Assembly (NCBI GenBank): GCA_905178155.1
Contig: CAJINV010000004.1
Coordinates: forward strand, 1,116,881 to 1,180,880
Length of the DNA stretch: 64,000 bases
DNA from: Amoebophrya sp. A120
Taxonomy: Eukaryota; Protista; Dinoflagellata
Reading direction: 5' to 3'
Of the stretch, positions 2,413 through 63,474 are shown piece by piece (the first letter of the stretch is position 1; the number at the start of each line of letters is the position of its first letter). The notes under the pieces were generated by a model. The model did no database searches. It was not told the DNA's origin and saw only the letters and a list, made by a program, of their open reading frames with translations. Both the position numbers and the translations under genes were made by a program.

Positions 2413-4361
2413 CTAGCAGCAGCTCACGAAACTGTCAATCCCGGAATCACTGCAACACGTGTACACCGCTCGCTTCCGCTGCTTTTTCTTCTATCCTGAG
2501 TAAATAAAACGTCCCCACACCAGAGTCAAGATGGGCAATCTGCTACACAAATCCACCAGCTTTTGCTGTTGCGCATGACAAGTTTGGCCTCGCAGTCTAG
2601 TCCTATTCAGTTAGTTCACCAGCACCACACATCTAGCATATCATGCTGATTGGAGCACGACAAATTCCGAAACACGACTAGACAATATTTCTCATGGGGC
2701 TCTGCATGAGAAACATCTTCAGCATGCAGAATTGCATTACGAGTATGGGGTAGGGACGTTTTTGCAAATGATATCTTCTCAGCGCTCGTCAGGTGGTCGT
2801 CTTCCGTGATCTCGACAAAGTATCAAAAGGAAAAATCTCCCCTCCCCATATCACAACAAAACTAAAACTTCTGATGCTGGATTTGGGTACACAAATCCAA
2901 TTTGTGTTGCAGTAGAGGAATGCACTCAGACCCTGAGCCTAGGCGGGAGGCTTTTGGTGTAGGCGCCTAGCATGGCAGACGGCTACCCCGTAGCAGGCCT
3001 TAGAGCATTACAAATCGCCTGCATGACCTGGCGGACAGCCTGAGCGTGCCTTCTTGCAAGACGGACCCGATTTGTGGTCACAGATCAGCAACACAAATTT
3101 TCGGAAACATACCTTTTCGATATGGGGAGGGGGGATTTTTCCTTTTGATACAGAGACACAACTCTTCGCAAACGTCGCCTTGGAATTGCCGCCCACGTCC
3201 TTCGCCTCCTTCGAGCACGCTTCATCTTTGTATGGTGAGAAAAAACGTCCCCATCCCAGAGTCAAGAGACGAAATCTGCTAGACAAATCGCCAAGCTTTG
3301 GCTGTTGCGAATGACAAACTCGTAGTCGTCTTTAGCTAGTGCAGGGGTCTCACAAATCTAGCATACGATGCAAATTTGAGCATATCAAATCGCAACTGCA
3401 CACCAATAGAAACTGCTTCTGAGCGGTCTCTGCATGAGAAACATTCTCAGGAGCATGCAAATTTGCATTACACACAACTCTGGGCGGGTGGGGACGTTTT
3501 TACAAATGATACTTTGTCGCTGTCGATCCCCTCGGCCCACTTCTCGCAGGTGATCTATTACAGTGAAAAATGCCCTCACCCTGAAAGTTGCAACAATTTG
3601 TGATGCGAAGTTTCCAAATGAAAACTTTTTGTCTTGCATGGAAAGGACTATGAATCTTTCTGATGCAGAGTCTAGTCGTAATCGTATACGGCATCGCTTG
3701 CATGACAAGCGCCGCGCTTGCTGGAATCTTTTGCAATTACAGATTTTTGCTATTCACGCTTGAAATTCTGTGATGTTGATACAACATGCAGGACGGCGAA
3801 TGTTTCCATTGATATTCCATTGGAAAGGCTTGCAATACAGATGCTCCCAGGGAAGTTCTGGGGTGGGGGCGTTTTTCACTGTAATATGATCTTCTCCTTC
3901 TTCTTGGAGGCCATGGTCGCCTCCGTGCTGGTGCTGGTACTAAGCCCCGTGGTATGAAAGGAAAAAAAAGGCCGTCCAGAAACCATTTTTATTTTTTACC
4001 ACGGCAGTATAGTTCTTGGTCTTTTTTCTGCAACAATGACAAATAAGTATACGGAACTGCTTCTTTTTCAAGCTAGAGAATGTTGCATGATGCTGACAAT
4101 CAACACAGCACGATCTCCATCTTTTCTTGTGTTTCATGCCTTCTAGCCCTACGTACTATTCCATGCGAGAATAAATTTCTCATGCAGAAGTTCGGTTTCT
4201 TCAAAGGAATCCTGATATTTTTACAGACGGCCTTCTCTTTTTCCTCCATACATCCGCCCCAGCAGTTGCGCGACGTCCACAGCCGCCGCCGGTTCGGGAA
4301 CTACCCCGGCCAAGAGACCGGCACCCGCCAGAACTTTCGCACCCGTTCGCAGGACCTTCAT
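2413..4361 (-). CDS. Small putatively secreted Cys-containing protein, 6 exons separated by 5 introners
   Basis: Spliced reading MKVLRTGAKVLAGAGLLAGVVPEPAAAVDVAQLLGRM|GLSTSTSTEATMASKKKEKI|TCEKWAEGIDSDK|DEACSKEAKDVGGNSKATFAKSCVS|VEITEDDHLTSAEK|KKQRKRAVYTCCSDSGIDSFVSCC*; N-terminus resembles a signal peptide; 3' end uncertain. Confidence 0.7.
2492..2773. mobile_element. Introner, family E
   Basis: TIR tatcctgagtaaa..aacgtcccca / ggggtagggacgtttttgcaaatgata; TSD tcttc. Confidence 0.85.
2821..3150. mobile_element. Introner, family B
   Basis: TIR tatcaaaaggaaaaatctcccctccccata / tatggggaggggggatttttccttttgata; TSD caaag/cagag (1 mismatch). Confidence 0.9.
3231..3511. mobile_element. Introner, family E
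   Basis: TIR with aaaaacgtcccca / tggggacgttttt; TSD ctttg. Confidence 0.9.
3556..3886. mobile_element. Introner, family E-like
   Basis: TIR tattacagtgaaaaatgccc / gggcgtttttcactgtaata; TSD tgatc. Confidence 0.9.
3953..4250. mobile_element. Older introner, family J
   Basis: TIR tatgaaaggaaaaaaaaggccgtc / gacggccttctctttttcctccata; TSD diverged, but removing element + 5 nt restores the frame. Confidence 0.7.
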
Positions 4362-61861: not shown

Positions 61862-63474
61862 TCATCCACACTTCGTCACGATGCCGCTGGCCACTGTGAT
61901 CCCCCCCTCGCGCAACGCAAATCGCAGGCCCTCTTCCAGCGCAAACGGCTTTTCCAGGTCGCAACGCACCTTCACCCGGTCCCCCGGCATGGCCATCTCG
62001 ACGTTGTCGGGTAGATGCACATCGACCGTACAAGTGCCCTATCAAATGTGAAAGTGTCTGGGTCTGGAAGATTAGAACTTGTCATGCTAAATCTGAATGA
62101 TGCAAAAATCTGTGTTGCGTGAGTACCAAAAGCTGTCCGCTTTTGACCAAGTTGCGGGGGAGTTTCTCATGCAGGAAAGGCATGATAGAGACCTCAAAGA
62201 ATCTGTCATGCTGTGTCTCGCATTCCAGACCTCATGGGTCATGGAAAACCTGCATCACAAATCTCATTCTTCCAGACCCAGACATTTTTGCATTTGATAT
62301 GCCCGTGCGAATGAACGCCTGCGGACGGTACCGGCTGAAGAACGGCTTTTTCCTTCCACCCTCGTCCGTCTTTAGCACGTAAAGATCCGCATCGAACTTG
62401 CTGAAGGTCTTGCAGTGCCCCGGTTTCGCGATCACCTATCAAATGCAGAAATGTCTGGGTCTGGAAGATCCTGAGACTTGTCATGCACGGCTCGCATGAG
62501 CCATGATGTCTGTGGCGCATGCCCTAGTATCACAGGTTTTCTGAAGGATTCTTGATGCCTATTCTGCATGAGAAATGCCCTCCCCGCGTAGCAAAAACTA
62601 GAATCCTTCTGCTGCTCATGCAACACAAATTTTTTAGACATCCAAATGCAGCATCACAAGTTGCATTCTTCCAGACCCAGACATTTTTACAGTTGATATC
62701 ACCTGCCCACGGGCAATTTCGTCCTTCTTCACGCCCTTCAACATGATACCTGACACGGAGGATACATGTTGATCATCGATTGTGGGAGGAACTTTAATAT
62801 TGTGTGAATCGCCCTTCTACTTGTGTAGTTGCGTCTTGCATGATAAAGTAGTAGAAAAGTCAGGATCGTTGTACTTCCCAGAAATTCACTGTTGTACTAG
62901 GGCCGCGGCCTTCTAACACAATTATTATGACCTGCAAAAGTATCGTAGTCGTATGAATGCATTACAAATTTCATCAGCATGAGAAATACAATTTGTAATG
63001 CGGATTTAGCTTACGAAAAAGATTTGTAATGCATGACTGCATTATACCGCACTGATCCCCGGCCATTCCGGAGTCGAGTGTTTTGTGAAACATCTCCAGC
63101 CCCGTGACTTCCACACTCCGCGGCTTGCTATGAGCGTGCACACCTCCCCCTCATTTGAGGTGCACGACGAGCGGCAATACAAGCGTCGGCTGTCGGCAAT
63201 TATGCAGGTTTTGCATGACAAACTTACCCGGGGTTGTGGTGCCGTCTGAGCTGCCAGAACTTGTCATGCATAATAGTGACAGGAGGGCGAGGGAATAAAG
63301 TGAGGAGTTGGTGTTTTGCATGAGAAATGAAAATATTGAGGGGGAGTTGTGCACTCTGATACTTGCCCGATGAGCCCGTCAACTCTAGCTTCTCCCCTAC
63401 CTTTACCTGCCCGGTTTCGATTTTTCCCGTCGCTACCGTGCCTTTAGTCGGGATCCGGAGAACTGACTCGACGC
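61862..63474 (-). CDS. TUFM: Elongation factor Tu, nucleus-encoded organellar (probably mitochondrial) type; domains 2-3 only, 5' part outside the window
   Basis: [94 protein letters not shown]. Confidence 0.93.
62040..62299. mobile_element. Introner, family A
   Basis: Family-A TIR; TSD tgccc. Confidence 0.92.
62437..62698. mobile_element. Introner, family A
   Basis: Family-A TIR; TSD tcacc. Confidence 0.92.
62926..63047. mobile_element. One-ended family-F remnant forming the 5' end of a GT-AG intron (62750-63047)
   Basis: Matches the 55974-56118 body but lacks ~25 bp of one TIR. Confidence 0.75.
63129..63361. mobile_element. Introner, family D
   Basis: Family-D TIR; TSD cttgc. Confidence 0.9.

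What the first reader, a model, noticed from the sequence alone, without database searches (positions are those of the whole stretch)
2492..63361. About 45 MITE-like non-canonical introns from ~13 families obeying one geometric rule
Seen: 145-330-bp elements (two are longer) with TIRs starting TAT and ending ATA, and 5-bp TSDs. Removing the element plus 5 nt restores conserved protein motifs in PAP, EF-Tu, aprataxin and the GTPase. Many cannot be read as GT-AG in any register (e.g. sense TSDs atttt, gaaga, cgccc). Established: inverted- and direct-repeat-bounded introners are reported for Amoebophrya, so the class itself is not new, but their removal mechanism and mobilising enzyme are unresolved as far as I know. 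No transposase is encoded in this window.
Basis: partly seen in the sequence, partly recalled or inferred. Interest (0 to 1): 0.75.

Follow-up and report, generated by a model that had tools for sequence, protein, structure and literature searches.

The report
Transposon introns cut by fixed ruler
These are the already described transposon-derived introns of the marine parasite Amoebophrya A120, and transcript contigs show them cut out at one fixed spacing from the element's hairpin ends (1 base before, 4 after) whatever the flanking letters, likely by an adapted spliceosome, which makes their unexplained splicing testable.

Summary
The window has 50 TAT...ATA inverted-repeat elements (48 of 145-341 bp, two longer) with 5-bp target duplications; a strict scan finds 34 against 0 in 30 shuffles. 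A PAP exon is identical to an Amoebophrya sp. A120 protein, so these are the A120 introners of Farhat et al. 2021: the class is known. New here is the splice register. Transcript-like contigs of one sample join across 9 of 14 elements in 2.3-14.4 kb, always removing element plus 5 nt. Three old copies with decayed duplications fix the cut exactly, and all nine agree: intron = N-TAT...ATA-NNNN. The published 'variable' splice sites would then mostly be sliding ambiguity. In 381 further elements the outer letters show no GT/AG preference, whereas the TAT/ATA ends are strongly conserved, +2/+3 most. Best reading: an adapted U2/U5/U6 spliceosome uses the terminal hairpin as a ruler (about 0.55). 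The rival is a non-spliceosomal system like that proposed for Euglena's nonconventional introns (about 0.3). No transposase or autonomous copy was found; TA ends with a 5-bp duplication point to an integrase-like DDE enzyme.

The parts
2492..2773 (.). introner, host gene on minus; predicted intron ends AT..AG
   Evidence: no joint listed
2821..3150 (.). introner, duplication 4/5; GT..TT predicted
   Evidence: no joint listed
3231..3511 (.). introner; GT..AA predicted
   Evidence: no joint listed
3556..3886 (.). introner; AT..TC predicted
   Evidence: no joint listed
3953..4250 (.). old introner, decayed duplication; GT..AC predicted
   Evidence: no joint listed
6681..6916 (.). introner in small-GTPase gene, duplication 4/5; GT..CA
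   Evidence: joint 6675>6917, 241 nt = element+5
6961..7280 (.). old introner in GTPase gene; CT..TA; fixes the 1/4 register
   Evidence: joint 6956>7282, no sliding
7540..7801 (.). old introner in GTPase gene; GT..GG; fixes the 1/4 register
   Evidence: joint 7535>7803, no sliding
7847..8013 (.). old introner in GTPase gene, now GT..AG; fixes the 1/4 register
   Evidence: joint 7842>8015, no sliding
8142..8453 (.). probable very old introner, now a GT-AG intron of the same geometry
   Evidence: joint 8137>8455, 317 = 312+5
8884..9729 (.). 846-bp introner in GTPase gene, no recognisable coding remnant; CT..CG
   Evidence: joint 8878>9730
9790..10071 (.). introner, duplication 4/5; GT..AA; bounds the register
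   Evidence: joint 9784>10072
10134..10395 (.). introner in GTPase gene; GT..AT
   Evidence: joint 10128>10396
12742..12897 (.). introner; GT..GT
   Evidence: joint 12736>12898
13954..14121 (.). introner, duplication 4/5; GT..GC; bounds the register from the other side
   Evidence: joint 13949>14123 in all four runs
14993..15159 (.). introner; AT..AG predicted
15526..15845 (.). introner; GT..CG predicted
16054..16262 (.). introner; GT..GC predicted
16335..16589 (.). introner; AT..TG predicted
23097..23370 (.). introner in aprataxin-like gene, duplication 4/5; CT..CT predicted
23466..23730 (.). introner in aprataxin-like gene, sense 3' triplet ATC; CT..TT predicted
23802..24123 (.). introner in aprataxin-like gene; GT..CA predicted
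24188..24405 (.). introner in aprataxin-like gene; GT..AG predicted
27011..27299 (.). introner; CT..CC predicted
27489..27708 (.). introner; GT..GT predicted
27762..28016 (.). introner; GT..CC predicted
30314..30573 (.). introner; GT..TG predicted
39108..39365 (.). introner; GT..AC predicted
40668..40980 (.). introner; GT..CT predicted
42607..42757 (.). introner; GT..GA predicted
42813..43021 (.). introner; AT..CG predicted
43902..44153 (.). introner in a second PAP-like gene; TT..TT predicted
49129..50355 (.). 1227-bp introner = short element plus nested ~1-kb insert with 16-bp direct repeat; TT..AT predicted
50564..50904 (.). old introner, decayed; CT..AC predicted
50965..51115 (.). introner; AT..GG predicted
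51244..51546 (.). old introner, decayed; GT..GA predicted
53117..53364 (.). introner, duplication 4/5; TT..TA predicted
55974..56118 (.). introner in PAP gene; GT..AA
   Evidence: contig length, P0001
56164..56415 (.). introner in PAP gene; GT..GG
   Evidence: contig length, P0001
56819..57080 (.). introner in PAP gene; GT..CG
   Evidence: P0001
57122..57334 (.). introner in PAP gene; TT..AA
   Evidence: P0001
57606..57788 (.). introner in PAP gene; AT..TG
   Evidence: P0001
57812..58072 (.). introner in PAP gene; AT..TG
   Evidence: P0001
58309..58559 (.). introner in PAP gene; GT..TG
   Evidence: P0001
58728..59035 (.). introner in PAP gene; TT..AG
   Evidence: P0001
59127..59379 (.). introner in PAP gene; TT..TG
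   Evidence: P0001
59455..59606 (.). introner in PAP gene; GT..GC
   Evidence: P0001; contig piece begins at 59607
62040..62299 (.). introner in EF-Tu-like gene; AT..GC predicted
62437..62698 (.). introner in EF-Tu-like gene; AT..TG predicted
63129..63361 (.). introner in EF-Tu-like gene; GT..AA predicted
54700..59876 (-). poly(A) polymerase host gene, part holding 10 elements
   Evidence: 920/920 aa to P0001; Pfam
5796..10611 (-). small-GTPase host transcript: 7 elements (8 with 8142-8453) and GT-AG introns on one 1697-nt contig

Best explanation
These are non-autonomous TAT...ATA inverted-repeat transposon copies (introners) of Amoebophrya A120, removed from transcript-like contigs in one fixed register (1 base before TAT, 4 after ATA, leaving one copy of the 5-bp duplication), likely by an adapted U2/U5/U6 spliceosome that would use the element's terminal hairpin as its ruler. 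Shown: the anatomy, removal of element+5 nt, the 1/4 register, both orientations in genes, no preference in the outer letters, conservation of the terminal triplets. Inferred: the ends pair in the pre-mRNA and bring the splice sites together in place of U1/U2AF recognition. Inferred: the 5' end is read as N-UA(Y), like the host's canonical GUAY donor with the G relaxed, and the 3' cut is counted from the stem base. Inferred: copies are moved by an integrase-like DDE transposase encoded elsewhere that makes a 5-bp staggered cut. Because any 5-mer is duplicated and then restored, an insertion anywhere in an exon would be silent.
For: Nine of nine element joints skip element+5 nt, and their allowed registers intersect only at 1/4; three joints allow nothing else. 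One 1697-nt contig equals the window span minus ten skips, mixing elements and GT-AG introns. PAP model 920/920 to P0001. In L034, 13 of 13 element introns are compatible with 1/4 against A120 protein P0005, and one decayed copy excludes upstream registers. 320 of 421 elements found by inverted ends alone have a perfect 5-bp repeat; other lengths are at background. Both orientations occur. Terminal triplets: 10 substitutions over 6 positions in 254 elements against about 64 expected. In 325 elements: 0 of 650 at +2/+3 against 6 of 650 at the partner sites -5/-6 (p=0.03, post hoc), and +4 T>C tolerated 5 times. The four GT-AG joints begin GTAC or GTAT and the PAP intron GTATAC. Two old copies (7847, 8142) are now GT-AG introns in the same geometry. 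A120 keeps U2, U4, U5, U6 and most spliceosomal proteins, with U1 undetected (PMC7789003). A spliceosome adapted to non-canonical introns has precedent in Fritillaria (PMC13326754 abstract).
Against: G at +1 is 109 of 381 and AG at the 3' end 34 of 381 in the larger set, so no canonical preference. Decayed copies do not drift toward GT-AG (G at +1 in 4 of 31, AG in 3 of 31). The G excess in the window (26 of 47) did not replicate. Established spliceosome structures use the first and last intron G (recalled), so a machine blind to both would need changes that I did not test. The nearest geometric analogue, Euglena's nonconventional introns, is proposed to be non-spliceosomal (PMC12501133). The exact register rests on three joints in one gene from one sample whose RNA status is the tool's guess. 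Five elements gave no joint. No lariat, branch point or transposase was seen.
Confidence: 0.55

Rival explanations
1. Same elements and same 1/4 register, but removed by a separate, non-spliceosomal stem-recognising nuclease and ligase, convergent with the machinery proposed for Euglena's nonconventional introns.
For: Flat composition at +1, -1 and -2; both orientations occur; the ends fold into terminal stems in 10 of 10 folded introns (8-11 of the first 12 pairs). Euglena uses fixed 3-nt and 5-nt spacers outside a paired CAG/CTG, does not tolerate a one-base change of the 5' spacer, and releases circles (PMC12501133). U1 was not found in A120.
Against: The 5' UA is more conserved than its pairing partner and matches the host's GUAY donors. 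Old copies pass into GT-AG introns in the same register (7847, 8142), whereas hybrid introns are said to be rare in Euglena.
Confidence: 0.3
2. Splice sites really vary around the hairpin, as drawn in PMC7789003, and the 1/4 agreement is local or coincidental.
For: The paper reports inverted repeats 1-5 nt from the mapped sites (Fig. S23 legend). Only three joints are exact, all in one gene.
Against: Three exact joints agree (1 in 36 by chance over six registers), three more bound the register from both sides, and L034 agrees. All nine commonest A120 non-canonical types in Table S4 have T at +2, though aligner bias could add to that.
Confidence: 0.08
3. The elements are excised from DNA, like ciliate internal eliminated sequences, and the joined contigs come from excised DNA.
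For: The runs' RNA status is a guess. The joint table of the DNA-like run was cut (1379 rows not shown), so empty-site DNA was not excluded.
Against: The joined contigs also lack GT-AG introns. Contigs of the DNA-like run cross element ends, and one whole element, at single-copy depth of 40-46. The 1/4 asymmetry fits transcription direction, although all informative genes here lie on one strand.
Confidence: 0.04

Closest known systems
Introner elements (IEs) of Amoebophrya sp. A120 (PMC7789003)
   Same: Same organism by protein identity; inverted repeats starting TAT with an A-run; 5-bp direct repeat example; about 240 nt mean length; non-canonical ends; no internal transposase.
   Different: The paper gives direct repeats of 3-5 nt and splice sites 'variable' relative to the hairpin, with the border unknown. 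Here the duplication is 5 bp and the cut is fixed at 1/4. [quoted passage not shown]
Nonconventional introns of Euglena (PMC12501133, PMC11282704)
   Same: Paired ends, fixed unpaired spacers (shorter 5', longer 3'), free outer letters, sliding ambiguity from direct repeats, probable MITE origin.
   Different: Euglena: 3 nt-CAG...CTG-5 nt plus a purine starting the next exon, circles on excision. Here: 1 nt-TAT...ATA-4 nt, products unknown. Unrelated lineages, so convergence.
IS3EU/GingerRoot DNA transposons (PMC10045372) and A120 family 38 (PMC12130899)
   Same: TA..TA termini; integrase-like DDE enzymes make 4-6-bp duplications; family 38 is listed with a 5-bp duplication, TA/TA termini and Copia-like homology.
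   Different: IS3EU/GingerRoot usually duplicate 6 bp. No transposase could be tied to the elements here.
Fritillaria borealis non-canonical introns (PMC13326754 abstract; PMC11282704)
   Same: MITE-derived introns with inverted and direct repeats, removed by an altered U2-type spliceosome.
   Different: Fritillaria keeps preferred ends (AG-AC, AG-AT) and uses divergent U2AF and U1; here the outer letters are free and U1 was not detected.

Membership tests
A120 introner elements | Host is Amoebophrya A120 | tested here: met
   Exon 100% identical to a protein named A120 by its source; 920/920 aa
A120 introner elements | Inverted repeats starting TAT, seven variable bases, then an A-run | tested here: met
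   position counts
A120 introner elements | Short direct repeats at the borders | tested here: met
   5 bp: 37 of 47, 320 of 421
A120 introner elements | Repeated in the genome | tested here: met
   17 clusters; element depth about 1e5 against about 45 for unique DNA
A120 introner elements | Spliced from RNA with non-canonical ends | tested here: met
   9 of 14 joints; 8 of those 9 non-GT-AG; RNA status is the tool's guess
MITE | Short, non-coding, inverted ends, target duplication, many copies | tested here: met
MITE | Cognate autonomous element with the same ends | tested here: inconclusive
   none in 64 kb plus 674 kb; whole genome not held
IS3EU/GingerRoot | TA..TA termini | tested here: met
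IS3EU/GingerRoot | 6-bp target duplication | tested here: not met
   0 of 421 with a 6-bp repeat, 320 with 5 bp
IS3EU/GingerRoot | Integrase-like DDE transposase | not testable with these tools
   no coding copy found, no genome
U2-type spliceosomal intron | GT/GC-AG ends | tested here: not met
   42 of 47 have no such register
U2-type spliceosomal intron | Lariat at a branch A; dependence on U2/U6 | not testable with these tools
   contigs only
Euglenid nonconventional intron | Paired ends with fixed spacers | tested here: met
   1/4 spacers; stems
Euglenid nonconventional intron | CAG/CTG motif with 3/5 spacers | tested here: not met
   TAT/ATA with 1/4
Euglenid nonconventional intron | Release as circles | not testable with these tools
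   no raw reads covering the genes

The most novel reading that the evidence does not exclude
Amoebophrya A120 has a second, spliceosome-independent splicing system that reads only a transposon-end hairpin and cuts 1 nt outside it on one side and 4 nt on the other. It arose independently of Euglena's and makes insertion of this transposon family harmless at any exonic position.
Probability: 0.3. Interest if true: 0.82.

Novelty: already known. Interest (0 to 1): 0.5.

Why it matters
A120 is cited as having over 60% non-canonical introns with no clear boundary signature. If most obey N-TAT...ATA-NNNN, that diversity reduces to one structural code. Annotations could then be corrected, and the open question (adapted spliceosome or separate machinery) becomes testable with spacer and stem mutants and with lariat or circle sequencing. 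It would also be a second lineage, after Euglena, in which transposon ends serve as a splice ruler, and would explain how tens of thousands of insertions sit in exons without harm. The elements themselves are not new.

Tried and rejected
No whole genome is held, so the genome-wide search for autonomous copies was not possible. The inverted-repeat pattern found 0 matches in viral contigs. Of 14 long candidates in the loci: the 6.2-kb one in L034 joined the inner palindromes of two copies; the 2.5-kb one in L063 carries an insert with a 415-aa ORF of no Pfam family and no Atlas hit; nine of 432-1031 bp were printed, and 6 of their ORFs plus 8 from the 846-bp window element gave no transposase family; the 10-kb and 4.8-kb weak pairs were not examined further. 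A TA..TA scan of 1.3-20 kb in the window gave 12 pairs at 12 of 20 matches, taken as chance. A GT preference at +1 (26 of 47) was rejected after 109 of 381 in the loci; drift toward GT-AG in decayed copies was rejected. Reading frame alone cannot separate +2 from +5 removal (930 against 920 aa). No run was on record as RNA among the holders. The first gene (2492-4250) gave no joint. Rfam: 0 matches. Earlier findings: none. A profile search for ORF 32234-33940 never left the queue, so there is no result.
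Full report
Observation. Pairs of inverted ends with a perfect 5-bp direct repeat occur 33 times for terminal TAT and at most once for any other trimer (80-600 bp). Up to 1500 bp there are 34 in the window and 0 in 30 of 30 shuffles. From 65 relaxed candidates I kept 41 on inverted-repeat score and added 9 older copies with decayed repeats. That gives 50: 48 of 145-341 bp, plus 846 and 1227 bp. The 41 fall into 17 clusters. 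All 47 examined have an open minus-strand frame across the predicted junction. 37 of 47 have a perfect duplication, and 42 of 47 have no GT-AG or GC-AG register.

Identity. A PAP exon is 100% identical to P0001, named Amoebophrya sp. A120 by its source. Removing ten elements plus 5 nt each reproduces 920 of 920 residues; P0001 is an annotation product, so this is support, not independent proof. EF-Tu, aprataxin-like and small-GTPase frames also become continuous, with Pfam support for single exons.

Removal. Contigs of runs X3, X5, X6 and X7 (one sample; RNA status guessed by the tool) were laid on 2300-14400. Of 14 joints listed, 9 lie at catalogued elements, 4 are GT-AG introns, and 1 (side of 20 letters) lies inside the 846-bp element. 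14 catalogued elements lie in the stretch; the 5 in the first, poorly covered gene gave no joint. All 9 skip element+5 nt. One 1697-nt contig equals 5796-10611 minus its ten skips, and a second contig's length fits removal of two PAP elements plus 5 each.

The register. With a perfect duplication the joint slides over six positions; old copies remove that ambiguity. Joints 6956>7282, 7535>7803 and 7842>8015 allow one register only: 1 nt before TAT and 4 nt after ATA in the sense direction, giving CT..TA, GT..GG and GT..AG. Three partly decayed copies bound it from both sides, and all nine intersect only there. A pattern scan fetched 127 loci (674 kb) from another assembly, whose tested exon is 98% identical to an A120 protein: a close or the same strain, so only partly independent. 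There, 320 of 421 elements found by inverted ends alone have a perfect 5-bp repeat, with other lengths at background. In L034, 13 of 13 element introns are compatible with 1/4 against P0005, and one excludes upstream registers. Elements sit in both orientations; neighbouring strand calls agreed in 307 of 316 pairs.

What is read. The outer letters are free. In 381 strand-called elements (40 of 421 dropped as uncalled), G is at +1 in 109 and AG at the end in 34, and decayed copies show no drift to GT-AG. The excess of G at +1 in the window (26 of 47) did not replicate. The terminal triplets are constrained: 10 substitutions in 254 elements against about 64 expected from duplication decay. In 325 elements there are none at +2/+3 against 6 at -5/-6 (p=0.03, post hoc), and +4 T>C occurs 5 times. 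The four GT-AG joints begin GTAC or GTAT and the PAP intron GTATAC, so the element end matches the host donor at +2 to +4. Predicted folds pair 8-11 of the first 12 terminal bases in 10 of 10 introns.

Mechanism. Shown: anatomy, removal, register. Inferred: a DDE transposase inserts the element with a 5-bp stagger; in the pre-mRNA the ends pair and the cuts are set by distance from the stem, so exactly one duplicate survives and any exonic insertion is silent. I put 0.55 on an adapted U2/U5/U6 spliceosome, on the strength of the donor-like UA(Y), the 5'/3' asymmetry, two old copies that are now GT-AG introns, and the Fritillaria precedent. I put 0.3 on a separate nuclease-ligase system, on the strength of the free outer letters and the Euglena analogy. 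Variable sites get 0.08 and DNA excision 0.04. Against DNA excision, contigs of the DNA-like run cross element ends at single-copy depth, though that joint table was cut.

Mobiliser. No transposase family among 102 window ORFs of 120 aa or more, and no autonomous copy among the long candidates examined. The 1227-bp copy holds a nested insert with a 16-bp direct repeat. TA..TA ends recall IS3EU/GingerRoot, which usually duplicate 6 bp (PMC10045372 passages), so membership fails on that feature. A120 family 38 is listed as 'Ginger; 5-bp TSD, TA/TA termini' (supplement row), with Copia-like homology in the main text, which also says it lacks Ginger termini and duplications. An integrase-like enzyme is therefore the best guess.

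Literature seen. PMC7789003: abstract, sections 10, 11, 12, 16, part 3 of Methods, supplement legends and Tables S4 and S7; figures not visible, so Fig. 3, 4b and S19-S23 may show more of the register than the text does. PMC12130899: passages and 41 of 58 A120 rows of one supplement. PMC12501133: passages and Discussion. PMC11282704: passages and section 6. PMC11453091, PMC12621601, PMC9860276: passages. PMC13326754: abstract. Searches found no paper fixing the A120 register; most subscription papers are not in the library. Motif comparisons with known PAP, EF-Tu, HIT and GTPase sequences beyond the Pfam hits are recalled.

Verdict. Real, and a known class in this very organism. The fixed 1/4 register and the evidence that only the hairpin ends are read are the useful additions. 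Novelty: already known. Interest 0.5.

Noticed in passing
window 49238-50234: About 1-kb GC-rich insert inside an introner, with a 16-bp direct repeat and a T-rich end, like a 5'-truncated non-LTR element on the minus strand. A 2758-nt contig of X3 covers it and runs on; depth in X1 is about 7-9 times that of unique DNA.
   Followed up: partly
window 34277-37505: Four copies of a 46-nt direct repeat around a 393-aa ORF (34325-35503, minus) whose Atlas neighbours carry Exo_endo_phos at score 0.90: a lead for a LINE-type endonuclease remnant.
   Followed up: partly
window 32234-33940: Intronless GC-rich 569-aa ORF on the minus strand with no Pfam hit; the profile search did not return.
   Followed up: partly
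window 62926-63044: Half of a 150-bp-family element inside the GT-AG intron of the EF-Tu-like gene; the donor lies within element-like sequence, a possible conversion to a canonical intron.
   Followed up: no
window 43500-44900: A second poly(A) polymerase-like gene, 11 kb from the first, with one introner at a different position.
   Followed up: partly
window 20988-22009: About 900-bp GC-rich stretch bounded by 60-nt direct repeats, with a 36-nt tandem array at the left end.
   Followed up: no
window 62040-62126: Raw RNA run X9 holds over 180 reads with this 87-nt element end in a different flank, while covering none of the window's genes.
   Followed up: no
whole window: All 47 elements examined sit in open reading frames, though much of the window looks intergenic. 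This suggests exon targeting, or fast decay of copies that need no splicing.
   Followed up: partly
L063 476-2934: Introner with a 2.2-kb insert carrying a 415-aa ORF of no known family.
   Followed up: partly
window 6649-6946: A low-depth contig (5.6) retains element 6681-6916 beside the joined form (40.2): pre-mRNA, DNA or partial retention.
   Followed up: no
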